64,000 nucleotides of DNA, from the NCBI RefSeq assembly GCF_009931435.1, contig NZ_CP043414.1; one strand, 5' to 3'. The position numbers and the translations under genes were made by a program. The notes beneath the pieces were generated by a model. It saw only the letters and a program-made list of their open reading frames with translations, did not search any database and was not told the DNA's origin. Positions within the stretch are counted from its first letter, which is position 1; each line of letters opens with the position of its first letter. Source of the DNA: Escherichia coli. Lineage in GTDB: Bacteria > Pseudomonadota > Gammaproteobacteria > Enterobacterales > Enterobacteriaceae. This document shows positions 46,861 to 64,000 of this stretch, piece after piece.

Positions 46861-48288
46861 CTAGCGCGACTGCTGATTATATTCATCATCGCGTTGATAA
46901 GCTTCATCATTCGGCTGCTCCGGTACCGACCGCAGTCGATACTCTTCATCCTGGCTCACCGCTTGTTCAGCCAAATCCGGATTAATCTCGCGTTTAATTT
47001 CTACTCCTAAACCGCGAAACGCTTCTGCTTGCGCCAGCACATTTCCGCGACCTGAAGAGAGTTTTTTCATTGCCTGACGATAGTTGTCCTGTGCTTTGTC
47101 CAGACTTTGACCAATCGCGGACATATCATCGACAAACAAGCGCATTTTGTCGTACAACTTGCTGGCACGATCGGCTATTTTCTGAGCGTTGCGGCTTTGA
47201 TGCTCATAGCGCCAGAGGTTGGCGATAGTGCGCAGCGCCACCAGCAGCGTGGTCGGGCTAACCAGCATGATATTGTTTTTCAACGCTTCGGTGATCAGCT
47301 CCGGCTGGCGGTCAAGCGCCAGTAAAAAAGCGGGTTCAACGGGAATAAACATCAGCACGTAATCCAGGGTTCGCAGCCCCGGCAGCTGTTGATAATCTTT
47401 GCGTCCCAGCAAACGGATATGGTTACGCACCGACGCGATATGTTCCTGTAGCGCGCTTTCGCGGGTGTAGTCGTCTTCTGCGTTGAAATAGCGTTCATAG
47501 GCGACCAGTGTCATTTTTGCGTCGATCACCACATCTTTTCCCTGCGGCAACCGCACGATGACATCCGGCTGCATCCGCGAGCGGGCGTCATTTTCGATGC
47601 TGACCTGGGTTTCATATTCATACCCTTCACGCAGACCGGAAGCCTCCAGCACACGCGTCAATACTACCTCGCCCCAGTTGCCCTGGGTTTTATTGTCGCC
47701 TTTCAGCGCACGCGTCAGGTTGATCGCTTCCTGGGCCATTTGCGCGTTGAGCTGCTGGAGATTGCGTATTTCGTGAGTCAGGGTATGGCGTTCTTGTGCT
47801 TCTTTACCGAAACTGTCCTGAACCTGACGACGAAAACCGTCCAGTTGTTCACGTAGTGGCGACAACAGGCTGTTCAGACTCTGACGGTTTTGCTCATCAA
47901 CCCGGCGATTGCTGTGCTCGAAAATACGGTTGGCGAGGTTTTCAAACTGCTCACTGAGGCGCTGTTCGCTGTTGATCATTTGGCGAATTTTATCGTCAGC
48001 ATGTTGCTGTACGGCCTCCATTCGCGTGGTGACTTCACGCAGATCCGCCTCCAGCGAGGTGTTAATGCTTTGCAGACTGCGCACTTCATTATTGAGTAAC
48101 TCGCACTCAGCACGCCAATGTTCGCTTTGGGTAATTTGTTGTTTTGCCGCACTTAACTCCGCGACCATCTCTTCACGTTCAGCGAATTGCTCGGCTTTTT
48201 GCTGCGCATGCTGATAACTGGCAATCAGCCAGCCAATCGCCACGCTCACCAACGCAATAACTGCGTAAACCATGATTGAGATATCCAC
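46861..48288 (-). CDS. rmuC: DNA recombination protein RmuC
   Basis: Start assigned to GTG at 48288 (VDISIMVYAVIAL, preceded by ggagg RBS) giving 475 aa; the ORF-track ATG at 48381 adds 31 aa. Confidence 0.88.
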   Translation of the reverse strand: MDISIMVYAVIALVSVAIGWLIASYQHAQQKAEQFAEREEMVAELSAAKQQITQSEHWRAECELLNNEVRSLQSINTSLEADLREVTTRMEAVQQHADDKIRQMINSEQRLSEQFENLANRIFEHSNRRVDEQNRQSLNSLLSPLREQLDGFRRQVQDSFGKEAQERHTLTHEIRNLQQLNAQMAQEAINLTRALKGDNKTQGNWGEVVLTRVLEASGLREGYEYETQVSIENDARSRMQPDVIVRLPQGKDVVIDAKMTLVAYERYFNAEDDYTRESALQEHIASVRNHIRLLGRKDYQQLPGLRTLDYVLMFIPVEPAFLLALDRQPELITEALKNNIMLVSPTTLLVALRTIANLWRYEHQSRNAQKIADRASKLYDKMRLFVDDMSAIGQSLDKAQDNYRQAMKKLSSGRGNVLAQAEAFRGLGVEIKREINPDLAEQAVSQDEEYRLRSVPEQPNDEAYQRDDEYNQQSR

Positions 48289-48404
48289 AACGCCTCCAGC
48301 CTCATTACTTACCCGCACAAAATAGAATTGTGCTGTACAAACGTCCAGTTTGAAAGAAGTTTCCTGCGAGGCGCTACGCAAAACGATCCTTAATTTTTAT
48401 TATT

Positions 48405-48444
48405 TTATCCCACAATATGAGACCTAGTTTATATTGTGGGATAA
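48405..48444. promoter_or_regulatory. perfect 14-bp inverted repeat, candidate operator
   Basis: ttatcccacaatat-N12-atattgtgggataa, 60-100 bp upstream of the IclR-family gene and about 120 bp upstream of divergent rmuC; no flanking U-run on either strand. Confidence 0.45.
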
Positions 48445-48503
48445 ATCACCTTTTCCCCACGTCATTATGTGGAACACTTCAGCAATATCATCAGGAGAAA
48501 CGT

Positions 48504-49271
48504 ATGGCAGATACCTCTTCAACCACCGCTGGCGCACAAACGTTATTACGCGGGCTCGCGGTTCTTAATGCTGTTTATAACGGCTGCCATGACCTGAAAA
48601 GTATCGGCGAGTTCACCGGCACGACCCGGAGCACAACCCATCGTTTAGTCACCGTTCTGGTGGAACAACGCTACCTGCGCCACGTCCCAACGCAGGGCTA
48701 CCAACTGGGCGCCAAACTGATCGAATTCGGTGCCAGAGCGCTGGAAAGCACCTCGCTGTACGAAGTTGCGCTGCCCGTTTTGCAACGCCTTGCCCGTTAC
48801 ACCCTGGACACCGTGCATCTGGGGATCGTTGAAGGCGACGAAGTGCTGTATCTGGAGAAGATCAACAGCCAGCGCGGGCTGGAAATGCGCTCACGCCCAG
48901 GCCATCGCATGCCACTGGCAATCACCGGCATCGGCAAGGCATTGATCCTCAACCGAACAGAAGAAGAGTGGCGCACGCTGTTTAAGACCTGTGGTGATGA
49001 AACAAAACTGGGCGCATTTATTCAGAACATGCGTCGTTATGCCGCGAGTGGTTTTGCTTTTGATCTGGAAGAGAACGAGCCGACTATCCGTTGCGTTGCA
49101 GCGCCGGTTTACAACGCCCGGGATGAAATTGTGGCGGCTATTTCTGTCGCCAGTACCACTACGTATATGTCACTGGCGCGTCTGGAAGAACTGGCACCTT
49201 ACGTCAAATCCTGTGCAGAAGAGATATCCGCTGAACTGGGCTGGGGTAAGCACGTCCGCAAAAATAAATAA
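48504..49271 (+). CDS. IclR-family transcriptional regulator
   Basis: Start chosen at MADTSSTTAGAQTLLRGLAVLNAV (aggag RBS); N-terminal wHTH plus C-terminal effector-domain pattern typical of IclR regulators. Confidence 0.8.
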   Translation: MADTSSTTAGAQTLLRGLAVLNAVYNGCHDLKSIGEFTGTTRSTTHRLVTVLVEQRYLRHVPTQGYQLGAKLIEFGARALESTSLYEVALPVLQRLARYTLDTVHLGIVEGDEVLYLEKINSQRGLEMRSRPGHRMPLAITGIGKALILNRTEEEWRTLFKTCGDETKLGAFIQNMRRYAASGFAFDLEENEPTIRCVAAPVYNARDEIVAAISVASTTTYMSLARLEELAPYVKSCAEEISAELGWGKHVRKNK

Positions 49272-49294: not shown

Positions 49295-50299
49295 ATGTCG
49301 GGAAACACCTCATTTATTGCCCTGGACTGGGGAACGTCATCGCTTCGGGCATGGCGTTTTGGCGATTCACCAAATCCACAAGAAAAACGTGAATTCCCGT
49401 GGGGGATCATGAAATTACCCTCCCAGGCAGCAACACGTGAGGACGCTTTCCACGATACGTTTTTACGTGTCTGCGGCGACTGGCTGGCACAATCCCCATG
49501 CCCGGTTCTGGCTTGCGGCATGATCGGCAGTGCGCAAGGGTGGCAACCCGCAGCTTATTTACCTTGCCCGGTCACTCTCGAGGGTCTGGCAAAGCAGTTG
49601 ACGCCTGTTATCCACCAGCAGCAGACAATGCTGCATATTATTCCTGGCGTGATTAAAGAAGGTGAAATGCCCGAAGTAATGCGTGGTGAAGAGACACAAA
49701 TCTTCGGTGCTATCTCGATGGAACCGGCCCTGCAAAACGCGATCCGCCAGGGTATGCCTGTGCTGATTGGCTTACCTGGCACACATGCGAAATGGGCGGT
49801 AGTTGAAAACAACACCATTACCGATTTCCGAACCTTTATGACTGGCGAGTTATTTGATGTTTTATCCCGCCATTCGATTCTCGGTGCCACCATGCGTTCG
49901 GGAGATGAACCGCACTGGGATGCCTTCACCCATGGGCTGACAGCAGCACAAGAGCATCATCAGACCGGATTATTATCGACGCTGTTTTCGACCCGTTCGC
50001 GCCTGCTGACCAGTAATCTTACGCCGTCCTCACAGGGGGATTACCTTTCAGGATTACTGATAGGCCATGAATTATGCGGTCTGGCATCCAGTTTGCTACG
50101 TGATTTACCCGCCACAACACCGATCGCCTTAATCGGTAGCGCCACTCTGAACAGCCGCTATTCACAAGCATTCAGCCACGTTTTTCCCGACAGACAGCTA
50201 CACGCCATTCCTAATGCCACTGAACAGGGGTTATGGCGAATCGCCCACGTTGCCGGGCTACTCTCCACCAACGCCAGGGAATGTACCCATGCCATTTAA
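49295..50299 (+). CDS. 2-dehydro-3-deoxygalactonokinase-like sugar-acid kinase (DgoK family)
   Basis: 334 aa; N-terminal IALDWGTSSLRAW and VMRGEETQIFGA / TGELFD..LS.HS.LGA / LSGLLIG motifs align with E. coli DgoK as I recall it. Confidence 0.8.
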   Translation: MSGNTSFIALDWGTSSLRAWRFGDSPNPQEKREFPWGIMKLPSQAATREDAFHDTFLRVCGDWLAQSPCPVLACGMIGSAQGWQPAAYLPCPVTLEGLAKQLTPVIHQQQTMLHIIPGVIKEGEMPEVMRGEETQIFGAISMEPALQNAIRQGMPVLIGLPGTHAKWAVVENNTITDFRTFMTGELFDVLSRHSILGATMRSGDEPHWDAFTHGLTAAQEHHQTGLLSTLFSTRSRLLTSNLTPSSQGDYLSGLLIGHELCGLASSLLRDLPATTPIALIGSATLNSRYSQAFSHVFPDRQLHAIPNATEQGLWRIAHVAGLLSTNARECTHAI

Positions 50300-50918
50300 T
50301 ACGCTTTTGCAAAAAACCGGGTTAGTCGCCATTTTACGCGGCGTGAAACCGGATGAGATTGTCGCCATCGGTGAAAAGCTGTATGCCGCTGGATTTCGCC
50401 TGATTGAGATTCCCATGAACTCGCCGGAGCCGTTGCAAAGTATCAGTTTACTGCGCGACGCCCTGCCTAAGGACTGCCTGGTCGGAGCCGGAACGGTGCT
50501 TTCGGTGGAGCAAGTCGTCGCGGTTAAAGAGGCTGGAGGCCAGATTATCGTGATGCCGCATTGCGATACTGCGGTGATCCGTCGTGCCCGTGCGCTGGGT
50601 ATGTATTGTGCGCCTGGCGTCGCTACGCCCACCGAAGCTTTTGCTGCCATTGAACATGGCGCCAATGCCATCAAGCTGTTCCCGGCTGAACAAATTACGC
50701 CTGAAGTCACCAAAGCCTGGCGTGCGGTTATTCCACAATCCGTTCCGATGTTACCGGTTGGCGGTATCACTCCAGACACAATGGCGCGTTATCTGAGCCA
50801 CGGCGCAAACGGCTTTGGCCTCGGTTCTGCGCTATATCGCCCCGGCATGACGCCAGAGCAAGTCTATGAAAATGCAGTACTGTTTATGAACGCATGGAAC
50901 AATTTAAATAGCAAATAA
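50289..50918 (+). CDS. 2-dehydro-3-deoxy-6-phosphogalactonate (KDPGal/KDPG) aldolase-like
   Basis: Start at MPFNTLLQKTGLVAILRG (209 aa), overlapping the kinase gene by 11 bp; AILRG...EIP.NSP...GAGTVL...GG(I/V)TP motifs of the Eda/DgoA family. Confidence 0.8.
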   Translation: MPFNTLLQKTGLVAILRGVKPDEIVAIGEKLYAAGFRLIEIPMNSPEPLQSISLLRDALPKDCLVGAGTVLSVEQVVAVKEAGGQIIVMPHCDTAVIRRARALGMYCAPGVATPTEAFAAIEHGANAIKLFPAEQITPEVTKAWRAVIPQSVPMLPVGGITPDTMARYLSHGANGFGLGSALYRPGMTPEQVYENAVLFMNAWNNLNSK

Positions 50919-50942: not shown

Positions 50943-51917
50943 ATGATAAAACATCTTACCTTACCGAAAAAAATGGCTGCAATGGTACTTCTTGCCGGCG
51001 CTGCCCTCAGCACTGCGCCTGTACAGGCGGCCTCCTGGCCAACCAAACAAATCGAGTTAGTCGTACCCTACGCGGCCGGAGGCGGTACGGACCTGGTTGC
51101 CCGAGCCTTTGCTGATGCCGCCAAAAACCATTTACCCGTCAGCATCGGGGTTATCAATAAACCTGGCGGTGGCGGCGCTATCGGCCTGAGTGAAATCGCC
51201 GCTGCCCGCCCTAACGGTTACAAAATGGGTTTAGGCACGGTTGAACTGACCACCCTTCCCAGCCTCGGAATGGTGCGTTTTAAAACCAGCGACTTTAAAC
51301 CCATTGCCCGTCTGAATGCGGATCCGGCGGCTATCACCGTCCGTGCCGATGCGCCGTGGAATAGCTATGAAGAATTTATGACTTACGCCAAAGCGAATCC
51401 CGGAAAAGTACGCATTGGTAACTCAGGCACCGGAGCAATCTGGCATCTGGCGGCAGCTGCACTGGAAGACAAAACGGGCGTGAAGTTTTCTCATGTCCCG
51501 TATGACGGCGCAGCCCCTGCCATTACAGGCCTGTTAGGCGGGCATATTGAAGCGGTTTCCGTAAGCCCAGGTGAAGTTATCAATCATGTGAAAGGCGGCA
51601 AGCTGAAGACACTGGTAGTGATGGCGGATGAACGTATGAAAACCATGCCTGACGTCCCGACGTTAAAAGAGAAAGGCGTTGATCTCTCCATCGGCACCTG
51701 GCGCGGCCTGATTGTGTCGCAAAAAACGCCGCAGGATGTGGTGGATGTGCTGGCAAAGGCAGCAAAAGAGACGGCTGAAGAGCCTGCATTCCAGGATGCA
51801 CTGCAAAAGTTGAATCTCAACTATGCATGGCTTGATGGTGCCAGCTTCCAGACCCAAATCAACGAGCAGGAAAAGTACTTTGACGAGCTTCTGACTCGCC
51901 TGGGCCTGAAAAAATAA
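50943..51917 (+). CDS. tctC: tripartite tricarboxylate transporter, periplasmic substrate-binding protein (TctC/Bug family)
   Basis: 324 aa; signal peptide then ASWPTKQIELVVPYAAGGGTDLVAR, typical Bug-family N-terminus. Confidence 0.8.
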   Translation: MIKHLTLPKKMAAMVLLAGAALSTAPVQAASWPTKQIELVVPYAAGGGTDLVARAFADAAKNHLPVSIGVINKPGGGGAIGLSEIAAARPNGYKMGLGTVELTTLPSLGMVRFKTSDFKPIARLNADPAAITVRADAPWNSYEEFMTYAKANPGKVRIGNSGTGAIWHLAAAALEDKTGVKFSHVPYDGAAPAITGLLGGHIEAVSVSPGEVINHVKGGKLKTLVVMADERMKTMPDVPTLKEKGVDLSIGTWRGLIVSQKTPQDVVDVLAKAAKETAEEPAFQDALQKLNLNYAWLDGASFQTQINEQEKYFDELLTRLGLKK

Positions 51918-51933: not shown

Positions 51934-52440
51934 ATGAACACAAAACAGTCTGTTGCTCAACTCGCCGTACCGCACCGCAAGCGCCTTTCATCCACTGTGG
52001 TGGTGGCGCTGTTACTTTGTGTGGTTGCTGGCGCGGTGATAATTAATGCCGCTGATTTTCCAGCAACTGCCATTGAAACGGATCCCGGTGCAAGTGCCTT
52101 CCCTACTTTCTATGCCTGCGCTCTGATTGTGCTCGCTGTCTTACTGGTGATACGCGATCTTTTGCTGGCAAAACCAGTCCCTTGCGCCAACGCACAGGAA
52201 AAACCGGCATTAAGGAAAACGGCAACAGGAATTGCGGCAACCGCGTTTTATATTGTGGCGATGAGCTACTGCGGTTATCTCGTTACTACTCCTGTTTTCC
52301 TCATCGTCATTATGACGTTGATGGGCTACAGGCGATGGGTACTCACTCCGGGTATTGCGCTGCTGTTAACGGCAATCCTCTGGTTGCTGTTTGTCGAAGC
52401 GTTACAGGTGCCATTGCCTGTCGGCACATTTTTCGAATAA
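51934..52440 (+). CDS. tctB: tripartite tricarboxylate transporter small membrane subunit (TctB-like)
   Basis: 168-aa 4-TM protein between tctC-like and tctA-like genes. Confidence 0.7.
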   Translation: MNTKQSVAQLAVPHRKRLSSTVVVALLLCVVAGAVIINAADFPATAIETDPGASAFPTFYACALIVLAVLLVIRDLLLAKPVPCANAQEKPALRKTATGIAATAFYIVAMSYCGYLVTTPVFLIVIMTLMGYRRWVLTPGIALLLTAILWLLFVEALQVPLPVGTFFE

Positions 52441-52452
52441 CAGGGGCCTGCA

Positions 52453-53943
52453 ATGTTTGAAAGTGAACTTTTAACTCAGGGGTTTTCGACATTACTCAGT
52501 AATCCTCAGGCGCTGCTGTTTGCCACGTTTGGAGTGATGCTGGGTATTATGATTGGCGCTCTGCCTGGCCTGACAGCGACCATGGGTGTGGCGATTTTGC
52601 TGCCTTTCACCTACGGCATGGAGCCTGTTTCTGGCTTGTTGATGATTTGCGGTGTCTTTTTTGGTGGTGTGTATGGTGGTTCTATCACCGCAATTTTGCT
52701 CAAAATTCCCGGTACACCTGCCGCCGCTGCCACCGCCATTGACGGTTATGAGTTAACGAAGCAGGGAAAAGCCGGGCTGGCATTAAGTGCCGCCACGTTC
52801 TCTTCTTTTAGCGGTGGAACGCTCAGCATTATCGTATTGATGTTTCTCTCTCCGGTCCTTGCTAGTTGGGCGTTGAAATTTAGTGCCTCGGAGTCCTTCG
52901 CCCTGGCAACCTTCGGACTGAGCATTATTGCCAGTATTTCCGGTGAGTCGCTGATTAAAGGGCTGATCGCCGGGATTGGCGGATTAATGATCGCAACGAT
53001 AGGCCTCGATCCGATGGGCGGTTTTCCACGCTTTACGGGCGGGTTTGTGGAACTGATGAATGTGCCATTTATCCCGGTGATGATTGGTCTGTTTGCTGCT
53101 TCAGAAGCGTTCCGTTCTATGGAACAAAATCAGCATATTCGTCAGAGCGCGAACGTGGCTATCGGCAGTCTGTTACTGCCCTGGCAAACGCTACGCCGCA
53201 TCGCATTAACCATTTTGCGCTCATCAGGATTAGGGGTTTTTATCGGCATGATCCCCGGTGCGGGGGCAGATATTGCAGCTTTTGTTGCCTATAACGAAAC
53301 TCGTCGTTTCAGTAAGACGCCTGAAAACTTTGGTAAGGGTGAGATTAAGGCGGTGGCCTCCTGTGAGGCAGGCGCGAATGGCTGCACCGGTGGCGCATTG
53401 TTACCTATGCTGACGTTGGGGATCCCAGGCGATGCGGTAACTGCCATCATGCTGGGCGCGTTAACGTTACAAGGGATGCAGCCAGGCCCACTGATGTTTA
53501 CCGACCACGGCGATATGGTTTATACGTTATTTGTCGGCATGATCTTCTGTTACTTCATGCTGCTAGTTCTTGGACTGCTCTCTTTGAAAGTCATCGGTAA
53601 CGTGGTGAAAATTCCCGGCAATATTCTCACACCGATGATCCTCGCACTTTGTGTGGTCGGGACTTATGCGTTGAACAATAGCCTGTTTGATGTTGGCATT
53701 ATGCTGATTGCAGGCGTGGTGGGCTATTTCATGCAAAAAGGGGGATATCCGGCATCACCCGTAGTGCTGGCATTGATTATGGGGCCAATGGCGGAAAGTA
53801 ATTTTCGCCGTGCGCTGTCGCTTTCAGGGGGGTCACTCGACTTCCTGTATACCCGACCGATAACCCTGGCATTGCTGACACTGGCAGCCTTTACGCTACT
53901 GACGCCAATAATACGCAAAATTATGCGCTTACGGCGTCAGTAA
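52453..53943 (+). CDS. tctA: tripartite tricarboxylate transporter large permease subunit (TctA-like)
   Basis: 496-aa polytopic membrane protein with duplicated GxPGxxA / IPGxPA-type motifs. Confidence 0.85.
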   Translation: MFESELLTQGFSTLLSNPQALLFATFGVMLGIMIGALPGLTATMGVAILLPFTYGMEPVSGLLMICGVFFGGVYGGSITAILLKIPGTPAAAATAIDGYELTKQGKAGLALSAATFSSFSGGTLSIIVLMFLSPVLASWALKFSASESFALATFGLSIIASISGESLIKGLIAGIGGLMIATIGLDPMGGFPRFTGGFVELMNVPFIPVMIGLFAASEAFRSMEQNQHIRQSANVAIGSLLLPWQTLRRIALTILRSSGLGVFIGMIPGAGADIAAFVAYNETRRFSKTPENFGKGEIKAVASCEAGANGCTGGALLPMLTLGIPGDAVTAIMLGALTLQGMQPGPLMFTDHGDMVYTLFVGMIFCYFMLLVLGLLSLKVIGNVVKIPGNILTPMILALCVVGTYALNNSLFDVGIMLIAGVVGYFMQKGGYPASPVVLALIMGPMAESNFRRALSLSGGSLDFLYTRPITLALLTLAAFTLLTPIIRKIMRLRRQ

Positions 53944-53964
53944 TTGATATCGCTCCCCGACGTT

Positions 53965-54110
53965 GGGGAGTATGAGACTGATGACAAACGCTAAATTGCC
54001 TGATGCGCTGCGCTTATCAGGCCTACCACAGAAATGCAATATATTGAATTTGCATGCTTTTGTAGGCCGGATAAGGCGATCACGCCGCATCCGGTATGAA
54101 CAAAGGACAC
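53965..54110. repeat. REP/BIME elements at the island 1 / udp junction
   Basis: gcctgatgcgctgcgcttatcaggcctac and gtaggccggataaggcgatcacgccgcatccggtatg units. Confidence 0.65.
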
Positions 54111-54127
54111 GTTAACAACAATCGGAA

Positions 54128-54153
54128 TGCTCCCCTAAGCCAGGGAGCGTTTT
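54128..54153 (+). terminator. rho-independent terminator (plus-strand, ends tct operon transcription)
   Basis: ctcccctaagccagggag hairpin followed by a T6 run. Confidence 0.55.
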
Positions 54154-54918
54154 TTATTTCAGCAGACGACGCGCCGCTTCCACCACGATTTTCACCGCCT
54201 GGCTTTCGGTTTGTTTCATCGTCTCAGCATTCGGGATCTCTTGCTGGGTACGATTGACGATAACGCCCGCCACCATACCCGCACGCAGGCCCTGGCTTGC
54301 ACACATGGTCAGCAGGGTTGCAGATTCCATTTCATAGTTCATTACGCCCATCGCCTGCCACTCTTCCATAGAACCTTTAAAGTGACGGACTACACGACCA
54401 GAGTAAGTATCGTAACGTTCCTGACCCGGGTAGAAGGTATCAGAAGAAGCCGTCACACCAACGTGAGTGGTGGCACCAATTGACTTCGCCGCTTCAACCA
54501 GCGCGGTCGTACATTCGAAATCTGCGACAGCCGGGAACTCCAGCGGAGCGAAGTGCAGGCTCGCGCCATCCAGACGAACAGACGCCGTGGTCACCAGCAC
54601 ATCGCCGACATTGATATGCGGCTGGATAGCGCCCGTTGTACCGATACGCAGGAAGGTGCGAATGCCCAGCTGTGCCAGCTCTTCAACCGCAATAGAGGTA
54701 GACGGGCCGCCGATACCGGTAGAGCAGACGATAACAGGTTTACCATCCAGCTCTGCACGCCAGGTGGTGAATTCGCGGTGAGATGCCAGCTTAACCGGCT
54801 TATCCATCAGCGCGGCGATCTTTTCCACACGATCCGGGTCGCCAGGGACGATGGCAAGCGTAGCCCCTTGTAAATCGTTTTTAGTGAGGCCGAGATGAAA
54901 AACATCAGACTTGGACAT
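54154..54918 (-). CDS. udp: uridine phosphorylase
   Basis: [41 protein letters not shown]...; PNP/UDP family. Confidence 0.96.
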
Positions 54919-56245: not shown

Positions 56246-56914
56246 ATGACGCAATCCATTTTTCAGGCTCAACCCTTTGAATTACCTTTTGATCCGCGCA
56301 CAACTGCACTGGTCATGATCGACATGCAGCGTGACTTTGTCGAAGCAGGGGGCTTCGGTGAGGCACTGGGCAATGATGTTTCACTGGTACGCACGGCTAT
56401 CGCACCATGTACAGAGGTGCTGGCAGCCGCACGTCAAAAAGGAATTATGGTTATTCATACTCGTGAAGGCCATCGTGCAGACTTAAGCGACTGCCCGCCA
56501 GCCAAACTGACGCGCGGCGGAAAAACCTTTATTGGTGAACCAGGACCGATGGGACGCATTCTGGTCAGAGGTGAAGCGGGTCATGACATCATTCCTGAAC
56601 TGTACCCAGTGACAGGCGAACCGGTGATTGATAAGCCCGGTAAAGGCGCTTTTTATCAAACCGACTTACATCTGATTTTGCAAAACCACGGTATCAAGAC
56701 GCTGATAGTTTGTGGTGTAACAACCGAAGTTTGCGTAACCACCACCGTGCGCGAAGCAAATGACCGTGGCTATGAATGCATTATCCCGGAAGATTGTGTC
56801 GGCTCATATTTCCCGGAATTCCAGAAATATGCCCTCGAGATGATCAAAGCACAAGGTGCCATTTTCGGTTGGGTGAGTGATTCCAAAGCCATTATTGCAG
56901 GTCTGGAAGGCTAA
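56246..56914 (+). CDS. isochorismatase-family cysteine hydrolase (RutB/BiuH-like amidohydrolase)
   Basis: 222 aa; D-K-C triad context (ALVMIDMQRDF, DKPGKGAF, VCGVTTEVC) and a C-terminal FGWVSDS block resembling RutB as I recall it. Confidence 0.75.
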   Translation: MTQSIFQAQPFELPFDPRTTALVMIDMQRDFVEAGGFGEALGNDVSLVRTAIAPCTEVLAAARQKGIMVIHTREGHRADLSDCPPAKLTRGGKTFIGEPGPMGRILVRGEAGHDIIPELYPVTGEPVIDKPGKGAFYQTDLHLILQNHGIKTLIVCGVTTEVCVTTTVREANDRGYECIIPEDCVGSYFPEFQKYALEMIKAQGAIFGWVSDSKAIIAGLEG

Positions 56915-56919
56915 CGCCG

Positions 56920-57780
56920 ATGGTACAGGTGACGCTTTGCGCATCATCGTTGGGATATCTTTTCCCGCAAAATGAAACGCAAGATTTACGTCTGCATAGT
57001 GCTTTTAAACATGCGGTAAATCTGTATTCAGAAGCGGGAACATTCATCACTCTGTTGTGTGCGCAAACGTATCTGAATCTCCCTGATGCCGCCAGAGTCA
57101 ACCTGCCTGAGAATTGGGACTGGCGAAGAGAGATTGCCCATTCAGATCCCATTCAGTTAACCCCAGGCTTGTTACAAACACCTCGCTTTTGCGTGGTGCT
57201 TCATAACACAACACTTTGGCAACCGCCATTTGTGGGGGGAATGCTGACACTTGAGGCATTCCCTTTGGTTTTCCAGCACTACCCAACGATGGCATCGCAA
57301 CGGCTTTTATTTTGTCTGGAGCATAACGTTCAAAGCACATTGCACCTGCCGGATAGTCTCACGCACCAGGGATTAGCGATTATGGAACATCCAGATGCAC
57401 TGGAACGCCAGGTGCCACAACTGATCGGCTTTGGTAAAGGCTTAACGCCCGATGGAGATGACTATTTGTTGGGCTATCTGGCAGCGCTCTGGTTATGGCA
57501 ACTCCCTGCAACACTTGCCGATCATCAATACCGGTTGCAGCAGGCAATTGATCAACATGCGCACAACACCACGGATATCAGTCGTCATTATCTGGAGCGT
57601 GCGCTTCAGGGGCATTTTTCAGAACCGATTTGCCAGTTACTCGCACAACTGGTTGGGGGCGCATCGGAAATGACAATCGCATCCTGTGCAGAACAGGTCA
57701 TGCAATTTGGCGCAACGTCAGGAGTAGATTGCCTTGCAGGAATGCTGCATGGCTTTCGAACCCTGAACACCATGAATTGA
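56920..57780 (+). CDS. DUF2877-like protein (YlbF/YahE-like putative carbamoyltransferase subunit)
   Basis: 286 aa, 6 bp after the hydrolase gene; GFGKGLTPDGDDYLLG motif; assignment to DUF2877 is from memory of the LTPxGDD signature and the conserved position next to FdrA-like/DUF1116 genes. Confidence 0.55.
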   Translation: MVQVTLCASSLGYLFPQNETQDLRLHSAFKHAVNLYSEAGTFITLLCAQTYLNLPDAARVNLPENWDWRREIAHSDPIQLTPGLLQTPRFCVVLHNTTLWQPPFVGGMLTLEAFPLVFQHYPTMASQRLLFCLEHNVQSTLHLPDSLTHQGLAIMEHPDALERQVPQLIGFGKGLTPDGDDYLLGYLAALWLWQLPATLADHQYRLQQAIDQHAHNTTDISRHYLERALQGHFSEPICQLLAQLVGGASEMTIASCAEQVMQFGATSGVDCLAGMLHGFRTLNTMN

Positions 57781-57874
57781 TTTCAACCTTTTCTCCCGTA
57801 GCCCATTTATGGCGCTACACGGGGATGCTTTGCCCGAATTTTGCTATCGGGCGGAATAAAACAGGCGTAACAGC

Positions 57875-59434
57875 ATGAAAGTTAAATATAAAGTTTTCAG
57901 CAATCTTTATCAGGACTCGGTTTCTCTGATGCAGATTTCCGCGCAAATCAGTAAGTTGCCCGGTATTCAACAGGCCTCGGTCGTCATGGGAACACCCAAT
58001 AATCTCGAACAATTGCGCGATGCGGGTCTGGGTAACGAAATCAACGCCAGTCCCAATGATTTAGTGATTGCAGTCATGGGTGAAGAAGATATTTGCAATG
58101 AAGCACTGATACTGGCCCAGCAACGTCTGACCAGCAAACCCGATGATGAAACGGATAGTGGCATTAAAACACCGGAAAATGTCAGCCTGGAAATGGCACT
58201 GGAAGCCGACACCGAAGCCAACCTGGCACTCATTTCTGTACCGGGAGACTACGCCGCCGCCGAAGCAATTAAAGCGTTAAACCTCGGAATGAACGTGATG
58301 ATGTTCAGCGATAACGTCAGTATCGGGCAGGAAAAATCCATCAAAACACTTGCCCGAGAACGTCAGCGCATCGTAATGGGACCTGATTGTGGAACCGCCA
58401 TTGTTAACGGCATTCCGTTAGGCTTCGCTAATGTGGTGAAACGCGGAGCAATTGGTGTTATTGGCGCGTCAGGCACCGGGCTACAGGAAGTGACTTGCCG
58501 AATCGACCAGCTCGGAGCGGGTATTTCTCAGGCGTTGGGAACAGGCGGGCATGATCTCAGTGAAGAGATTGGTGGAATATCGATGCTCTTCGCTTTAGAT
58601 GCGCTGGCGCAAGACGATGAAACTCGCGTGATTGTGCTTATTTCAAAACCGCCTTCACCGATCGTTGCCCGGGCTATTCTGGAGCGCGCCGAGGCTTGTG
58701 GAAAACCCGTGGTGGTGAATTTCCTCGGTGCGAATCCGCATGATCTGGCACGTCCCAATATCACCGCTGCCGCCACACTTGCCAGCGCCGCAAATATCGC
58801 CGTGGCAGTACTGAATGATCAGCCACTTCCGACTGTCGAGACCGAGATTTCCTGCGACGATCTCACAATGTTACAAAACGCCTGCCAGCGTCTGCCAGCC
58901 CATCGCCAGGCGATACGCGGTGTTTTCGCCGGAGGAACCTTCTGTTACGAAGCGCAACTTATCTGCCAGCAAAAGGGATTCAGCGCCGCCTCCAATACGC
59001 CAGTTGCGGGTAATCGTACTCTGGCAAATATCTGGCAAAGCAAAGGTCACACGCTGATCGATATGGGCGACGATGATTTCACCCGTGGCAAACCGCATCC
59101 AATGATCGACCCGACTCTGCGCAATCAACGTCTGCTCAACGAACTCAACGACTCACACACTGCCGTCGTGTTATTCGACCTGGTACTTGGTTATGGCGCT
59201 TCCGCTACGCCTGCCAGCGAATTACTGGACCAACTTTCACACATCGACATGAATAACGCACCGTTGCTGATTGCGCACGTTTGCGGAACGGAAGCTGATC
59301 CGCAAATACGCAGTCAGCAGATAAGCGCACTACAAAATGCGGGCATCATCATTGCCAGCAGCAATGCACAGGCGGCGCTATGGGCCAGCGCCGTTGCGCA
59401 GACTCAGTTGCAGAAAAAGGGGCTAAACGCATGA
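57875..59434 (+). CDS. FdrA-like protein (CoA-binding/succinyl-CoA-synthetase-like fold)
   Basis: 519 aa; N-terminus YQDSVSLMQISAQISKLPGIQQASVVMGTPNN aligns with E. coli FdrA; internal NVMMFSDNV, MGPDCGT and VIGASGTG motifs. Confidence 0.8.
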   Translation: MKVKYKVFSNLYQDSVSLMQISAQISKLPGIQQASVVMGTPNNLEQLRDAGLGNEINASPNDLVIAVMGEEDICNEALILAQQRLTSKPDDETDSGIKTPENVSLEMALEADTEANLALISVPGDYAAAEAIKALNLGMNVMMFSDNVSIGQEKSIKTLARERQRIVMGPDCGTAIVNGIPLGFANVVKRGAIGVIGASGTGLQEVTCRIDQLGAGISQALGTGGHDLSEEIGGISMLFALDALAQDDETRVIVLISKPPSPIVARAILERAEACGKPVVVNFLGANPHDLARPNITAAATLASAANIAVAVLNDQPLPTVETEISCDDLTMLQNACQRLPAHRQAIRGVFAGGTFCYEAQLICQQKGFSAASNTPVAGNRTLANIWQSKGHTLIDMGDDDFTRGKPHPMIDPTLRNQRLLNELNDSHTAVVLFDLVLGYGASATPASELLDQLSHIDMNNAPLLIAHVCGTEADPQIRSQQISALQNAGIIIASSNAQAALWASAVAQTQLQKKGLNA

Positions 59435-60855
59435 ATACCTTATTTAATCAGCCTTTGAAGGTCGTGAACGCGGGACTACACAGTTTTGCTGACAATATTC
59501 AACATGCCGGGGGAAGCGCAATTGCACTCAACTGGCAGCCACCAGCACAAGGCGATATTGACGCTGGATTGGATCTGGCATCGTTGCTACGTCATCCACT
59601 AGTAGAAAATGCCAATCAAATCGCCATGACACGTTATCTCGAAGCACAACCCGTGCTGGTGGATGTCATGCTCGCTAAAGAGGCCATTCCAGCAATGGCT
59701 GAACAAAAACGTATTTTGCACTCTGGTCCGCCGATTGCCTGGGAAGAGATGTGTGGTCCGGTAAAAGGGGCGATTATTGGTGCCATGCTGTACGAAGGTT
59801 GGGCCACCAGCCAGCAAGACGCTGAAAACCAGATAAACACAGGCGAAATCGACCTTGCCCCTTGTCATCATTATCACGCGGTTGGACCAATGGCAGGCAT
59901 CATCAGCCCGTCGATGCCGTTATGGGTGGTAGAAAACAAAACCAACGGCCACCGTACTTTTAGCAATTTCAATGAAGGTCTGGGTAAGGTTCTCCGTTTT
60001 GGTGCCAATAACGATGAAGTTCTCAATCGTCTGGCCTGGATGCGCGATGAACTGGCACCGGCAATGAAAGCAGCAATCGCACAACACGGCGAGCTGGAAC
60101 TCAAGCCATTAATGGCGCAGGCGCTGCATATGGGGGATGAAGTTCATAACCGCAATGCTGCCGCTACCGGTTTGCTGATTAAGCGCCTGCTCCCGGCATT
60201 GCTGGCCTGCTCTATTCCACAGGAACATATCCAGCGCGTCGTGGCATTTATCACCAGTAACGATCACTTCTTCCTCAATCTGTCGATGGCTGCCTGTAAA
60301 GCGATGATGGATGCCGCCGCCAATGTACCGTTCAGTTCAATGGTTACGGTGATGGCGCGTAACGGGGTGAATTTTGGTATTCGGCTTTCCGGTACTGGCG
60401 ATCGCTGGTTCCAGGCTCCTGCCAATGCAGTTGAAGGTCTGTTCTTCCCCGGATTTGGCGTCGACGATGCCGCTGCTGACCTGGGTGATAGCGCAATTAC
60501 CGAAACCGCAGGTGTGGGTGGCTTCGCGATGGCGTCATCTCCAGCGATCGTCAAATTTGTGGGAGGCACCCCTGCCGATGCCACCAATAACAGCCGTAGG
60601 ATGCAAGCAATCACCCTCGGTGGTAACCCCGCATTTACACTTCCTGCCCTCAATTTTGCCCCCACCGCAGCAGGGATTGATGCGCGTAAAGTGACCGATC
60701 GCGGCATTTTACCGGTCATCAATACGGGTATCGCCCACAAACAAGCGGGGGTCGGGCAAATTGGTGCCGGGATCACCACTGCGCCGATGGCCTGTTTTGT
60801 CGCCGCTGTACGTGCACTGTCTGAGATCGTCGCAAAGGAGAACCATCATGGTTAA
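59431..60855 (+). CDS. DUF1116-family protein (YlbE/YahG-like)
   Basis: Start at MNTLFNQPLKV, overlapping the FdrA-like stop (ATGA); 474 aa; family call from memory. Confidence 0.7.
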   Translation: MNTLFNQPLKVVNAGLHSFADNIQHAGGSAIALNWQPPAQGDIDAGLDLASLLRHPLVENANQIAMTRYLEAQPVLVDVMLAKEAIPAMAEQKRILHSGPPIAWEEMCGPVKGAIIGAMLYEGWATSQQDAENQINTGEIDLAPCHHYHAVGPMAGIISPSMPLWVVENKTNGHRTFSNFNEGLGKVLRFGANNDEVLNRLAWMRDELAPAMKAAIAQHGELELKPLMAQALHMGDEVHNRNAAATGLLIKRLLPALLACSIPQEHIQRVVAFITSNDHFFLNLSMAACKAMMDAAANVPFSSMVTVMARNGVNFGIRLSGTGDRWFQAPANAVEGLFFPGFGVDDAAADLGDSAITETAGVGGFAMASSPAIVKFVGGTPADATNNSRRMQAITLGGNPAFTLPALNFAPTAAGIDARKVTDRGILPVINTGIAHKQAGVGQIGAGITTAPMACFVAAVRALSEIVAKENHHG

Positions 60856-61804
60856 GCCACTGGCTGTTGTCGCAGTTGGCGGCAATGCGCTCATTCAGGA
60901 CGAGCAACGCAATAGTATTCCCGATCAATATGTTGCAGTGATGGAAAGCGTGCAGCATATCGTTGATATGGTTGAAGCCGGATGGGACCTGGTGCTTACC
61001 CACGGTAATGGCCCGCAGGTGGGCTTTATTCTGCGCCGCTCTGAACTCGCCAGTAACGAAGTTTCTCCGGTTCCACTTGATTACGCCGTGGGTGATACAC
61101 AAGGTGCAATTGGCTACATGTTCCAGAAAGCGCTGCATAACGAATTGGCTCGCCGTGGCATAAACAAACCGGTAATTGCGCTGGTGACACAAACGCGAGT
61201 CTGCCCACATGACGATGCTTTCACCAGCCCCAGTAAACCGATTGGCGCGTTTCTCGATGAAGCAACGGCCCTACAACGCCAACAGCAACTCGGCTGGACG
61301 CTGATGGAGGACGCCGGGCGTGGTTGGCGGCGTACAGTTCCCTCTCCTGCGCCACTGGAAATTATTGAGCACGACACCATCGCTCACCTGGTGCGCCAGG
61401 GATATCTGGTTATTGCCTGCGGCGGTGGCGGTATTCCGGTGGTGCGAGACGGACAACAACTGAAAGGTGTGGAAGCCGTGATCGATAAAGATCTGGCCTC
61501 CGCGCTGCTCGCCAGTCAGTTAGGCGCAGATCTGCTGGTGATCCCCACCGGTGTAGAAAAAGTGGCGATTAACTTTGGTACACCACAACAACAGTGGCTC
61601 GACGCTATCAGCGTTGCCGAAGCGCAAACGCTGTTACGGGAAGGTCAGTTTGGTGTCGGCAGTATGCAGCCCAAAGTGGAAGCCATTGTTGATTTCATCA
61701 ATGCCAGCCAACAACAAGGCAAACAGGCCAGCGGCCTGATTACTTCACCGCAAACCATAAAAGCAGCCCTTTCGCATCAGAGCGGCACATGGATAACCCT
61801 TTAA
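60848..61804 (+). CDS. carbamate kinase
   Basis: 318 aa; VVAVGGNAL and THGNGPQVG amino-acid-kinase motifs; 8-bp overlap with the upstream gene. Confidence 0.85.
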   Translation: MVKPLAVVAVGGNALIQDEQRNSIPDQYVAVMESVQHIVDMVEAGWDLVLTHGNGPQVGFILRRSELASNEVSPVPLDYAVGDTQGAIGYMFQKALHNELARRGINKPVIALVTQTRVCPHDDAFTSPSKPIGAFLDEATALQRQQQLGWTLMEDAGRGWRRTVPSPAPLEIIEHDTIAHLVRQGYLVIACGGGGIPVVRDGQQLKGVEAVIDKDLASALLASQLGADLLVIPTGVEKVAINFGTPQQQWLDAISVAEAQTLLREGQFGVGSMQPKVEAIVDFINASQQQGKQASGLITSPQTIKAALSHQSGTWITL

Positions 61805-61820
61805 TTCTCTGGAGAACTCA

Positions 61821-62210
61821 ATGACTACAACACTTTTAGCCGTTAACGGAACGCTGATGCGTGGCCTGGAACTCAACCCAAATATGCAAAAAGCGGGCGG
61901 CATTTTTGTCCGTGAAGACCGAACTGACGCCCATTACAGGTTGTGGAGTATTAACGATCGTCATCCGGGAATGATTCGCGTGAATGAAGGAGGAACACAC
62001 GTCGACGTAGAAATTTGGCAATTACCACTGACCAGTTTTGCCGCTCTGTTAATGAGCGAACCCGCTGGGCTGGCAATTGGCAAAATCAAACTTGCCGATG
62101 GTAGCGAAGTGCTGGGCGTACTGGCAGAAAACTGGCTGACCGAAGGCCAACGGGAAATTACAGAACTGGGTAGCTGGCGCAAATACACCGGGCATTTTCA
62201 TACTGTGTAA
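61821..62210 (+). CDS. small cytoplasmic protein of unknown function (possibly GGCT/AIG2-like or allophanate-hydrolase C-terminal-domain-like)
   Basis: 129 aa, no TM segment; NGTLMRG near the N-terminus weakly resembles the YGSL(x)RG motif of gamma-glutamyl cyclotransferase-like folds. Confidence 0.45.
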   Translation: MTTTLLAVNGTLMRGLELNPNMQKAGGIFVREDRTDAHYRLWSINDRHPGMIRVNEGGTHVDVEIWQLPLTSFAALLMSEPAGLAIGKIKLADGSEVLGVLAENWLTEGQREITELGSWRKYTGHFHTV

Positions 62211-62235
62211 CGCGCATTTTTAAAGGGAACATACT

Positions 62236-63459: not shown

Positions 63460-63536
63460 TTCCTGGGTATACTCAGGCAATGATTACGGCTGAATCTGGA
63501 GAGATTCAGCCACTTTACCACTGACCAGGGAGCCTT

Positions 63537-64000
63537 ATGTTCATCTCAGACGAAACGCTTCGTGTTATTCATCTGGTCGCCAGACACCAGAGCATTACCA
63601 CCGCAGCCGAACAGTTAAATAAAGTCCCTTCCGCCATCAGTTACACCATCAAGAAAGTGGAAGAGAGCCTGGGCGTTGAACTGTTCATTCGTAAGGGACG
63701 CTATATTGAATTATCTCCGGCGGGGAGTTACTTCATCGAACATAGCAAAACTATTCTGGGCGACCTGGAAGCATTAAAGCGCAACACAGTGCTGATTCAC
63801 GATGGTATTGAACGTGAACTGACAATTGCGGTGAACAATATTATTCCTGGTGATTTGCTGGTGGCATTTATTCGAGATTTTGAACGGCAATTCACATCAA
63901 CAACACTGACGGTAGATCTTGAGGTATACAACGGCTGCTGGGATGCGCTGTACAGTAAGCGTGCTGATCTGGTCTACGGTGCTCCTCATGCAGTGCCAAG
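63537..64000 (+). CDS. LysR-family transcriptional regulator, 5' part (continues beyond window)
   Basis: N-terminal HTH (LRVIHLVARHQSITTAAEQLNKVPSAISYTIKKVEESLGVELF); not MetR by sequence. Confidence 0.8.
   Translation, partial: MFISDETLRVIHLVARHQSITTAAEQLNKVPSAISYTIKKVEESLGVELFIRKGRYIELSPAGSYFIEHSKTILGDLEALKRNTVLIHDGIERELTIAVNNIIPGDLLVAFIRDFERQFTSTTLTVDLEVYNGCWDALYSKRADLVYGAPHAVP

What the first reader, a model, noticed from the sequence alone, without database searches (positions are those of the whole stretch)
49295..50918. Kinase and aldolase present without a dehydratase, with an 11-bp overlap
The DgoK-like and DgoA-like genes overlap (50289-50299), implying translational coupling, but no DgoD-type dehydratase is in the island. 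Either the transported substrate is already a 2-keto-3-deoxy acid, or the dehydratase is encoded elsewhere.
Basis: inference. Interest (0 to 1): 0.45.

Follow-up and report, generated by a model that had tools for sequence, protein, structure and literature searches.

The report
Dehydratase-less keto-deoxy sugar-acid uptake operon
This is a six-gene accessory operon, found in about a quarter of E. coli strains, that pairs a high-affinity acid transporter with a kinase and an aldolase; it most likely lets the cell take up and split a ready-made keto-deoxy sugar acid directly, which would explain why it never carries a dehydratase.

Summary
A DgoK-family kinase (49295-50299) and a DgoA-type aldolase (50289-50918) overlap by 11 bp, and the island has no dehydratase. 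The island is a tight six-gene operon (IclR regulator, kinase, aldolase, TctC/TctB/TctA transporter) between the core genes rmuC and udp. It occurs in 1456 of 5426 complete E. coli genomes, including CFT073, ST131 and BL21(DE3), but not K-12.

The overlap is ordinary: canonical dgoK/dgoA overlap by 17 bp, and the overlap is not conserved in other genera.

The missing dehydratase is not an accident of this locus. In 23 related modules from alpha-, beta- and gammaproteobacteria, none has a detectable aldonate dehydratase within 10 kb. Firmicute relatives of the binding protein sit beside a non-homologous PfkB kinase plus an aldolase, again without a dehydratase. Sixteen non-enteric modules add a reductase about 65% identical to the Sphingomonas DEH reductases.

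I therefore favour import of a pre-formed 2-keto-3-deoxy-hexonate, probably D-KDGal. The rival, galactonate import with DgoD supplied from the dgo operon, is not excluded: every islet-carrying E. coli genome also has dgoD. Function is untested. I rate it a new variant of a known kind, of moderate interest.

The parts
48404..48445 (.). Perfect 15-nt inverted repeat (TTTATCCCACAATAT, 12 nt, ATATTGTGGGATAAA) about 60 bp upstream of the regulator start. It is a candidate IclR operator overlapping the operon promoter region.
   Evidence: the repeat finder. Unique in the window at 0 mismatches. ATCCCAnAnAT / ATAnTnTGGGAT half-sites are conserved upstream of the orthologous regulator in Buttiauxella, Klebsiella and Phytobacter. 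Its function is inferred.
48504..49271 (+). IclR-family transcriptional regulator (255 aa), first gene of the operon.
   Evidence: Pfam IclR_C 1.6e-37 and HTH_IclR 5e-9. Best NCBIfam similarities are BhcR and KdgR, both below cutoff. The RefSeq start is equivalent. AGGAG lies 7 nt before the ATG.
49295..50299 (+). DGOK-family sugar-acid kinase (334 aa), annotated 2-dehydro-3-deoxygalactonokinase.
   Evidence: Pfam DGOK 1.5e-89, full length. PDB 3r1x and 3t69 DgoK match at about 1e-36, with the DWGTS ATP motif conserved. It is 47-49% identical to Burkholderia galactose-cluster DgoK.
50289..50299 (+). 11-bp overlap between the kinase stop and the aldolase start.
   Evidence: Read directly. The same overlap is annotated in three RefSeq genomes and in Buttiauxella.
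50289..50918 (+). Class I KDPGal-type aldolase (209 aa).
   Evidence: NCBIfam PRK09140 323 bits, above the 207 cutoff. 46% identical to E. coli DgoA (PDB 2v81, E 9.5e-50). The residues aligned with DgoA Arg14, Glu37, Lys126 and Val154 are R, E, K (query K129) and V (query V157).
50943..51917 (+). TctC/Bug periplasmic substrate-binding protein (324 aa, signal peptide).
   Evidence: Pfam TctC 2e-55. The closest structure is apo 4X9T, ligand unknown, at 5.6e-100. Next is 25hk at 2.4e-64. The GNSGTGAIWHLAA motif is invariant across the clade.
51934..52440 (+). TctB small membrane subunit.
   Evidence: Pfam TctB 1.5e-20.
52453..53943 (+). TctA large permease subunit.
   Evidence: Pfam TctA 2e-151.
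54124..54153 (+). Terminator-like hairpin with a T-run between tctA and the convergent udp gene.
   Evidence: Consensus scan: 11-pair stem. This is a consensus match only.
46861..48288 (-). rmuC, the core gene marking the left boundary of the islet.
   Evidence: RefSeq annotation of the syntenic region.
54154..54918 (-). udp, the core gene marking the right boundary of the islet.
   Evidence: RefSeq annotation of the syntenic region.

Best explanation
The islet is a self-contained operon, probably autoregulated, for scavenging a pre-formed 2-keto-3-deoxy-hexonate from the environment. The most likely substrate is D-2-keto-3-deoxygalactonate (KDGal).

Proposed mechanism:
1. The TctC binding protein captures the acid in the periplasm, and TctAB import it.
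2. The DGOK-family kinase phosphorylates it at C6.
3. The DgoA-type class I aldolase splits the product into pyruvate and glyceraldehyde-3-phosphate.
4. The IclR regulator, by analogy with KdgR, represses the operon at the conserved palindrome until the keto-deoxy acid or its phosphate appears.

No dehydratase is needed because the deoxy-keto function already exists in the imported molecule.

Shown: gene content, family membership, catalytic residues, conserved architecture, purifying selection. Inferred: the ligand, the direction of regulation, the operator.
For: (1) Family membership and catalytic residues. The kinase matches DGOK. The aldolase matches PRK09140 above cutoff. The residues aligned with E. 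coli DgoA Arg14, Glu37, Lys126 and Val154 are conserved; Eda has Thr161 at the last position.

(2) The same module recurs in 23 loci from at least 15 genera. These include Buttiauxella, Klebsiella, Phytobacter, Brenneria, Enterobacter, Rhodoferax, Azospirillum, Skermanella, Photobacterium and Spirabiliibacterium. None has an IlvD/Edd, UxaA/GarD, UxuA or DgoD-type dehydratase within 10 kb. This rests on tblastn, Pfam-annotated neighbourhoods and a Pfam sweep of 172 neighbouring ORFs.

(3) Firmicute relatives of the binding protein (44-67% identity, same invariant core motif) sit with an IclR regulator, a non-homologous PfkB KDG/KDGal-type kinase and an aldolase. Some also have KduI plus a KduD-like SDR. 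Again there is no dehydratase.

(4) A pocket position (191, aligned to S164 of Vibrio TTT-C) is Ala in all reductase-less groups and Asn in 12 of 15 reductase-bearing modules. This fits a reduced ligand for the enteric version.

(5) A related TTT binding protein binds unsaturated uronate products (PMC13390454).

(6) The islet is under purifying selection (pN/pS 0-0.15 in five of six genes) and is intact in CFT073, ST131 and BL21(DE3).

(7) Background: in K-12, external 2-keto-3-deoxy-hexonates do not induce their own uptake (review PMC11219438). A dedicated inducible system would therefore fill a real gap.
Against: - No experiment exists for any gene of the islet. Eight literature searches found only a 2012 note that its six ORFs have unknown function.
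- The closely related Burkholderia IclR-DgoK-DgoA block belongs to a galactose oxidation cluster. That cluster clearly needs a dehydratase yet also lacks one locally. Absence next to dgoK/dgoA is therefore not diagnostic on its own.
- All 1456 islet-positive E. coli genomes also carry dgoD.
- A published genomic reconstruction assigned a TTT next to dgoK and an IclR regulator to D-galactonate uptake (PMC5507952).
- A natural source of free D-KDGal for E. coli is not established.
Confidence: 0.45

Rival explanations
1. The transporter imports an aldonate, most simply D-galactonate. It would act as a high-affinity alternative to DgoT. Dehydration is done by DgoD from the canonical dgoRKADT operon about 150 kb away, and the islet kinase and aldolase add capacity or a different regulation.
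For: - dgoD is present in 5020 of 5426 genomes and in every one of the 1456 islet-positive genomes. About 109 islet-positive, dgoD-negative genomes would be expected under independence.
- Leyn et al. 2017 predicted D-galactonate uptake for a TTT clustered with dgoK and an IclR regulator.
- Burkholderia and Pararobbsia dgoK-dgoA clusters also keep their dehydratase elsewhere.
Against: - The co-occurrence is confounded by phylogeny, because dgoD is nearly universal.
- Galactonate would induce the complete dgo operon anyway, making the islet kinase and aldolase redundant.
- In 23 modules across three proteobacterial classes a dehydratase was never recruited next to the transporter.
- Binding-protein relatives in Firmicutes pair with kinase plus aldolase only.
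- Non-enteric modules add a DEH-reductase-family SDR, which has no role in an aldonate route.
Confidence: 0.3
2. The transported molecule is a lyase-derived 4-deoxy-5-keto-uronate (DEH from alginate, DKI from pectin or glycosaminoglycans) or KDG. The 'DgoK/DgoA' names are then wrong about substrate: the pair acts on KDG or L-KDGal. The enteric islet has lost the module's reductase and depends on a host reductase or on the already reduced acid.
For: - Sixteen non-enteric modules carry an SDR that is 58-99% identical to the Rhodoferax copy. That copy matches Sphingomonas A1-R and A1-R' DEH reductases at about 1e-105.
- Homologues about 70% identical to A1-R' sit in alginate loci of Kluyvera and Vibrio.
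- The Photobacterium pectinilyticum module is followed by an SDR and an RpiB/LacAB-family gene. From memory these resemble streptococcal DhuD and DhuI, which act on DKI.
- An Azospirillum module lies next to KdgT-KduI-SDR-cupin genes.
- Clostridial loci combine a DGOK-family kinase with KduI and an SDR.
- A related TTT-C protein binds unsaturated alginate products.
Against: - Stereochemistry does not fit. Reducing DEH gives KDG (4S,5R), and reducing DKI gives L-KDGal (4S,5S). The module aldolases are DgoA-type with Val at the V154/T161 position, which predicts 4R (the V/T rule is from memory of Walters et al. 2008).
- The E. coli islet has no reductase.
- The islet's kinase, aldolase and regulator are closer to the Burkholderia galactose-cluster proteins (49%, 61%, 55%) than to those of reductase-bearing modules (39%, 55%, 50%).
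Confidence: 0.15
3. The islet is a decaying remnant with no current function in E. coli.
For: - It is absent from about 73% of genomes, including K-12.
- One Brenneria copy of the aldolase looks degraded.
Against: - All six ORFs are intact in the window, CFT073, BL21(DE3) and 2013C-4282.
- pN/pS is 0-0.15 for five of six genes.
- 1454 of 1456 hits cover at least 80% of the kinase-aldolase query.
- The same position between rmuC and udp is kept in three other genera at 50-88% protein identity.
Confidence: 0.05

Closest known systems
Canonical E. coli D-galactonate operon dgoRKADT
   Same: It has a kinase and aldolase of the same two families. The kinase and aldolase genes also overlap (17 bp in K-12). 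The end products would be the same: pyruvate plus glyceraldehyde-3-phosphate.
   Different: - The islet has an IclR regulator instead of the GntR-type DgoR.
- It has a tripartite TTT transporter instead of the MFS symporter DgoT.
- It has no DgoD dehydratase.
- The islet aldolase is only 46% identical to its canonical counterpart; the kinase is also distant from the solved DgoK proteins (E about 1e-36).
KDG regulon of enterobacteria (KdgR-KdgT-KdgK-Eda)
   Same: The logic is the same. An IclR-family repressor controls uptake of a pre-formed 2-keto-3-deoxy-hexonate, followed by a kinase and a class I aldolase, with no dehydratase. This is the best functional analogue.
   Different: - The kinase is DGOK family rather than PfkB.
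- The aldolase is DgoA-type (Val) rather than Eda-type (Thr).
- The transporter is TTT rather than KdgT.
- The genes form one operon rather than a dispersed regulon.
- The regulator scores 127 bits on the KdgR model against a cutoff of 275.
Betaproteobacterial De Ley-Doudoroff galactose clusters (Burkholderia, Pararobbsia)
   Same: They contain the closest relatives of the regulator-kinase-aldolase block outside the enteric bacteria (55%, 49%, 61%). They also lack a local dehydratase.
   Different: Those clusters carry a sugar ABC transporter, two sugar-type SDRs, a lactonase and a mutarotase. They start from the neutral sugar, not from an imported acid.
TTT transporter of the Vibrio sp. C42 alginate locus (TTT-C; PMC13390454)
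   Same: It belongs to the same transporter family. Seven of the 11 reported ligand-contact residues are identical in the islet's binding protein, including Gly24, Gly183 and Thr225, which the authors single out as distinctive.
   Different: - The match is distant (E 2.4e-64).
- The second binding loop, GNSGTGAIWHLAA, is entirely different.
- TTT-C is reported to bind oligosaccharides and sits with lyases, DehR, KdgK and Eda.

Membership tests
DgoK / Pfam PF05035 (2-dehydro-3-deoxygalactonokinase) | Full-length DGOK domain and similarity to solved DgoK structures | tested here: met
   Pfam 1.5e-89 covering profile positions 1-281 of 281. PDB 3r1x matches at 3e-36 and 3t69 at 3e-35, with the N-terminal DWGTS motif aligned.
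DgoK / Pfam PF05035 (2-dehydro-3-deoxygalactonokinase) | Phosphorylates D-KDGal specifically, not KDG or L-KDGal | not testable with these tools
   No NCBIfam model matched. The genomic context is ambiguous.
DgoA (KDPGal aldolase, class I) | Scores above the curated cutoff of the KDPGal aldolase subfamily model | tested here: met
   PRK09140 scores 323 bits against a cutoff of 207. The eda model scores 135 bits, below its cutoff of 156.
DgoA (KDPGal aldolase, class I) | Schiff-base Lys, catalytic Glu, and Val rather than Thr at the stereo-determining position | tested here: met
   The residues aligned with E. coli DgoA Arg14, Glu37, Lys126 and Val154 are R, E, K (query K129) and V (query V157). 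Eda has T at the last position. The meaning of V versus T is from memory of Walters et al. 2008.
Canonical dgoRKADT galactonate operon | DgoD enolase-superfamily dehydratase in the operon | tested here: not met
   tblastn with DgoD finds nothing in the window. The island contains six genes only.
Canonical dgoRKADT galactonate operon | GntR-type DgoR regulator and MFS transporter DgoT | tested here: not met
   The regulator is IclR family and the transporter is TctCBA.
Tripartite tricarboxylate transporter (TTT) | TctC, TctB and TctA genes adjacent | tested here: met
   Pfam TctC 2e-55, TctB 1.5e-20, TctA 2e-151. Intergenic gaps are 16 and 12 bp.
KdgR regulon-type KDG system | KdgR equivalog regulator, PfkB KdgK kinase and Eda-type aldolase | tested here: not met
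   The KdgR model scores 127 bits against a cutoff of 275. The kinase is not PfkB. The aldolase is below the eda cutoff.

The most novel reading that the evidence does not exclude
The islet may be the stripped-down enteric form of a widespread, undescribed module for monomers released by polysaccharide lyases. The full module comprises a TTT transporter, a DEH-reductase-type SDR, an SMP30-like protein, a DGOK-type kinase and a DgoA-type aldolase. In it, a reductase and a 'galactonate-type' kinase-aldolase pair would replace the classical KduI/KduD/KdgK/Eda route. The DgoK/DgoA annotations would then be wrong about substrate (KDG or L-KDGal rather than D-KDGal). The islet could also underlie the still unexplained use of L-KDGal by E. 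coli.
Probability: 0.2. Interest if true: 0.65.

Novelty: new variant of a known kind. Interest (0 to 1): 0.45.

Why it matters
About 27% of sequenced E. coli carry this operon, including the uropathogen CFT073, the pandemic ST131 lineage and the laboratory workhorse BL21(DE3). Its substrate has never been determined.

- If it imports a keto-deoxy sugar acid directly, it would be the first dedicated, self-induced uptake route for such a compound in E. coli. It would also add a substrate class to the poorly characterised TTT family.
- It would point to cross-feeding on breakdown intermediates of galactose-, pectin-, alginate- or glycosaminoglycan-type polymers in the gut or urinary tract.
- The conserved, dehydratase-free architecture across three proteobacterial classes and the Firmicutes gives a concrete, cheap hypothesis to test.
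- The mismatch between a DEH-type reductase and a DgoA-type aldolase flags a possible mis-annotation affecting thousands of genomes.

Tried and rejected
- **Literature.** Eight searches covered KDGal plus TTT, dgoK plus tricarboxylate, rmuC/udp/tctA, TctC plus galactonate, sugar-acid TTT binding proteins, Haloferax kinases and KDGal uptake. None found a functional study of the islet. The only mention is Li et al. 2012: six ORFs of unknown function.
- **Haloferax precedent.** I tried to confirm from the library that a DgoK-type kinase can be KDG-specific in Haloferax. The paper I reached does not state the kinase family, so I dropped the argument.
- **A1-R' genomic context.** An exact-sequence look-up of Sphingomonas A1-R' found nothing on record. 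I used homologues about 70% identical instead.
- **Islet without dgoD.** I looked for islet-positive E. coli lacking dgoD, which would have refuted dependence on DgoD. There are none, so this test could not discriminate.
- **Unbiased Pfam sweep.** The sweep of 172 neighbouring ORFs lists only the top 25 families per batch. A weak enolase-superfamily hit in the first batch could be hidden. tblastn with DgoD covers that gap only partly.
- **Promoter scan.** It gave no more hits than shuffled sequence and was not used.
- **Overlap as special.** Rejected, because canonical dgoK/dgoA overlap by 17 bp and the overlap is not conserved across genera.
- **Not run.** Structure prediction and fold search would not distinguish C4/C5 stereoisomers of the ligand.
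Full report
**1. Observation**

The kinase ORF runs 49295-50299 and ends in TAA at 50297-50299. The aldolase ATG is at 50289, giving an 11-bp overlap, and an AGGGAA motif lies 7 nt upstream of that ATG. A longer in-frame ORF starts at 50214. However, alignment with E. coli DgoA begins near residue 6-9 of the 50289 start, and RefSeq uses the equivalent start in three genomes.

The kinase is a full-length Pfam DGOK protein (1.5e-89) and matches the two solved DgoK structures at about 1e-36. The aldolase matches the NCBIfam KDPGal-aldolase subfamily model above its curated cutoff (323 versus 207 bits). It is 46% identical to E. coli DgoA.

**2. What surrounds it**

The two genes are the second and third of six co-directional genes. 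Junctions are 23 bp, an 11-bp overlap, then 24, 16 and 12 bp. The genes are:
- an IclR regulator (48504-49271);
- the kinase;
- the aldolase;
- the three parts of a tripartite tricarboxylate transporter: TctC binding protein, TctB and TctA.

The unit lies between the core genes rmuC and udp. K-12 has nothing at this site. The kinase-aldolase pair is present in 1456 of 5426 complete E. coli genomes, including CFT073, an ST131 strain and BL21(DE3). Li et al. 2012 noted it in APEC O1 as a roughly 5-kb islet of six ORFs with unknown functions.

Against strain 2013C-4282, five of the six genes show pN/pS of 0-0.15. Their divergence is similar to that of the flanking core genes.

A perfect 15-nt inverted repeat lies about 60 bp upstream of the regulator (48404-48445). 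Its half-sites are conserved in three other genera, which makes it a good candidate operator. A hairpin with a T-run follows tctA.

**3. The overlap is ordinary**

Canonical dgoK and dgoA overlap by 17 bp, and dgoA and dgoD by 4 bp. In orthologous modules the kinase-aldolase junction varies:

| Organism | Junction |
|---|---|
| Buttiauxella | 11-bp overlap |
| Azospirillum | 8-bp overlap |
| Rhodoferax | 6-bp gap |
| Klebsiella | 13-bp gap |
| Enterobacter | 41-bp gap |

 In Brenneria izadpanahii the gap is 138 bp, but that aldolase looks decayed. Coupled translation is plausible but is not a conserved or distinctive property.

**4. The missing dehydratase is a conserved property**

The island is bounded by core genes, so a longer contig cannot add a dehydratase.

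The same six genes occupy the same rmuC-udp site in Buttiauxella, Klebsiella spallanzanii and Phytobacter, at 49-90% protein identity across the six proteins. They occur elsewhere in the genome in Brenneria and Enterobacter.

A scan of one genome per species with a binding-protein profile returned 79 loci. Nearly all proteobacterial binding-protein relatives at 56% identity or more lie in an IclR-DGOK-aldolase-TctC(BA) module. That gives 23 distinct modules.

tblastn with E. coli IlvD, Edd, UxaA, GarD, UxuA and DgoD found no dehydratase within 10 kb of any of them. The only DgoD hit was an Achromobacter dgoK-dgoA-dgoD cluster with no TTT transporter. Pfam annotation of six neighbourhoods and a Pfam sweep of 172 neighbouring ORFs agree. 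The sweep has one caveat: only the top 25 families per batch are listed.

**5. What the relatives add**

*(a) Firmicutes.* Binding-protein relatives (44-67% identical, with the motif GNSGTGAIWHLAA invariant) sit with an IclR regulator, a PfkB kinase and an aldolase. The kinase's best NCBIfam matches are bifunctional KDG/KDGal kinases. Some loci also carry KduI and a KduD-like SDR, and none has a nearby dehydratase. So two unrelated kinase families have been recruited downstream of the same transporter clade. This argues that the transporter delivers the kinase substrate, or something one step from it.

*(b) Reductase in non-enteric modules.* Sixteen non-enteric proteobacterial modules carry an SDR. 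The Rhodoferax copy matches the Sphingomonas sp. A1 DEH reductases A1-R and A1-R' at about 1e-105 (roughly 65% identity). Ten modules carry an SMP30/regucalcin-like protein. Homologues about 70% identical to A1-R' sit inside alginate loci in Kluyvera ascorbata and Vibrio cyclitrophicus. These reductases make a 2-keto-3-deoxy-hexonate from a lyase-derived 4-deoxy-uronate. That is a route in which polysaccharide beta-elimination, not a dehydratase, creates the deoxy-keto group.

*(c) Neighbouring uronate genes.* The Photobacterium pectinilyticum module is followed by an SDR and an RpiB/LacAB-family protein. An Azospirillum module lies near KdgT, KduI, an SDR and a cupin.

*(d) A characterised relative.* A related TTT binding protein from Vibrio sp. 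C42 binds unsaturated alginate products. Seven of its 11 reported contact residues are identical in the islet protein (PMC13390454).

*(e) A co-varying pocket residue.* Only five alignment columns separate reductase-less enteric binding proteins from reductase-bearing ones. One of them, position 191, aligns with a reported contact residue. It is Ala in all reductase-less groups and Asn in 12 of 15 reductase-bearing modules. This fits a reduced ligand for the enteric form.

**6. Which acid?**

For the E. coli islet, three lines point to D-KDGal:
- the aldolase belongs to the KDPGal subfamily;
- it has Val at the position where E. coli DgoA has V154 and Eda has T161. From memory of Walters et al. 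2008, this residue influences 4R versus 4S selectivity;
- regulator, kinase and aldolase are closest (55%, 49%, 61%) to the Burkholderia galactose-oxidation cluster proteins.

A mismatch remains for the full module. Reducing natural 4-deoxy-uronates gives KDG (4S,5R) or L-KDGal (4S,5S), not the 4R acid that a Val-type aldolase predicts. I could not resolve this, nor the role of the SMP30-like protein (notebook, 'unexplained').

**7. The rival that cannot be dismissed**

D-galactonate could be the imported acid, with DgoD supplied by the canonical operon. A concatenated-query count shows that dgoD-positive genomes (5020) and the union of dgoD-positive and islet-positive genomes (5020) are the same set. 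Every one of the 1456 islet carriers therefore has dgoD, where about 109 exceptions would be expected under independence.

Phylogenetic structure weakens this statistic, but it removes what could have been a refutation. The Burkholderia block also shows that dgoK-dgoA clusters can keep their dehydratase elsewhere. Leyn et al. 2017 predicted galactonate uptake for a similar TTT.

Against this rival: the kinase and aldolase would be redundant once galactonate induces the dgo operon, and the pattern in section 5 does not fit an aldonate route.

**8. Comparison with what is known**

By homology the enzymes belong to the dgo families. By logic the unit works like the KdgR-KdgT-KdgK-Eda system: it takes up a ready-made keto-deoxy acid, phosphorylates it and cleaves it.

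It is not a member of the canonical dgo operon, having no DgoD, DgoR or DgoT. It is also not a member of the Kdg regulon, having no PfkB kinase, an aldolase below the eda cutoff, and a regulator below the KdgR cutoff.

A review notes that in K-12 external 2-keto-3-deoxy-hexonates cannot induce their own transport, and that the route of L-KDGal in E. coli is unknown (PMC11219438).

**9. Verdict**

- The overlap is ordinary.
- The absence of a dehydratase is real, conserved and informative.
- Best explanation: direct uptake and cleavage of a pre-formed 2-keto-3-deoxy-hexonate (confidence 0.45).
- Rivals: galactonate plus DgoD elsewhere (0.30); a lyase-monomer or KDG-type reading (0.15); a decaying remnant (0.05).
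- It is a new variant of a known kind, uncharacterised experimentally. Interest is moderate (0.45). It is easy to test because BL21(DE3) carries it and K-12 does not.

Noticed in passing
window 53950-54153: The tctA-udp spacer is 210 bp here and in strain 2013C-4282, and is filled with REP/BIME-like palindromic units. CFT073 and BL21(DE3) have only 34 bp at this position. A strong hairpin with a T-run (54124-54153) abuts the udp stop codon.
   Followed up: partly
window 56246-64000: A second accessory cluster lies after ysgA. It encodes an isochorismatase-like protein, DUF2877, FdrA, DUF1116, a cytosine permease and carbamate kinase ArcC. About 1554 E. coli genomes carry it, including E. coli C and BLR(DE3). 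Strain 2013C-4282 has a frameshifted tssD at this site instead.
   Followed up: partly
L012 5079-7258 and 13239-14003 (Enterobacter hormaechei): A second DGOK-family kinase gene lies next to an Fe-dependent alcohol dehydrogenase and is transcribed divergently from the module. A second IclR regulator follows tctA.
   Followed up: no
L059, L062, L063, L079 (Lachnospiraceae / Clostridia MAGs): These loci read TctCBA-PfkB kinase-aldolase (Val type); an Eda-like Thr-type aldolase (42-45% identical to Eda) also lies in the same locus, and L062 and L063 carry a KduI gene between the two aldolases. Both aldolase stereotypes therefore sit side by side behind one transporter.
   Followed up: partly
L005 11111-11638 (Brenneria izadpanahii): The module's aldolase is short (175 aa) and lacks the conserved xPVGG motif. 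There is a 138-bp gap after the kinase. This copy is probably decayed.
   Followed up: no
L027 14174-15728 (Photobacterium pectinilyticum): Directly after the module come a second SDR and an RpiB/LacAB-plus-DUF3666 protein. From memory, this pairing resembles the streptococcal DhuD/DhuI enzymes that act on unsaturated uronate monomers.
   Followed up: partly
E. coli genome collection (no window coordinates): dgoD is missing from 406 of 5426 complete E. coli genomes, and none of those 406 carries the islet. I did not identify which lineages lack the dgo operon.
   Followed up: partly
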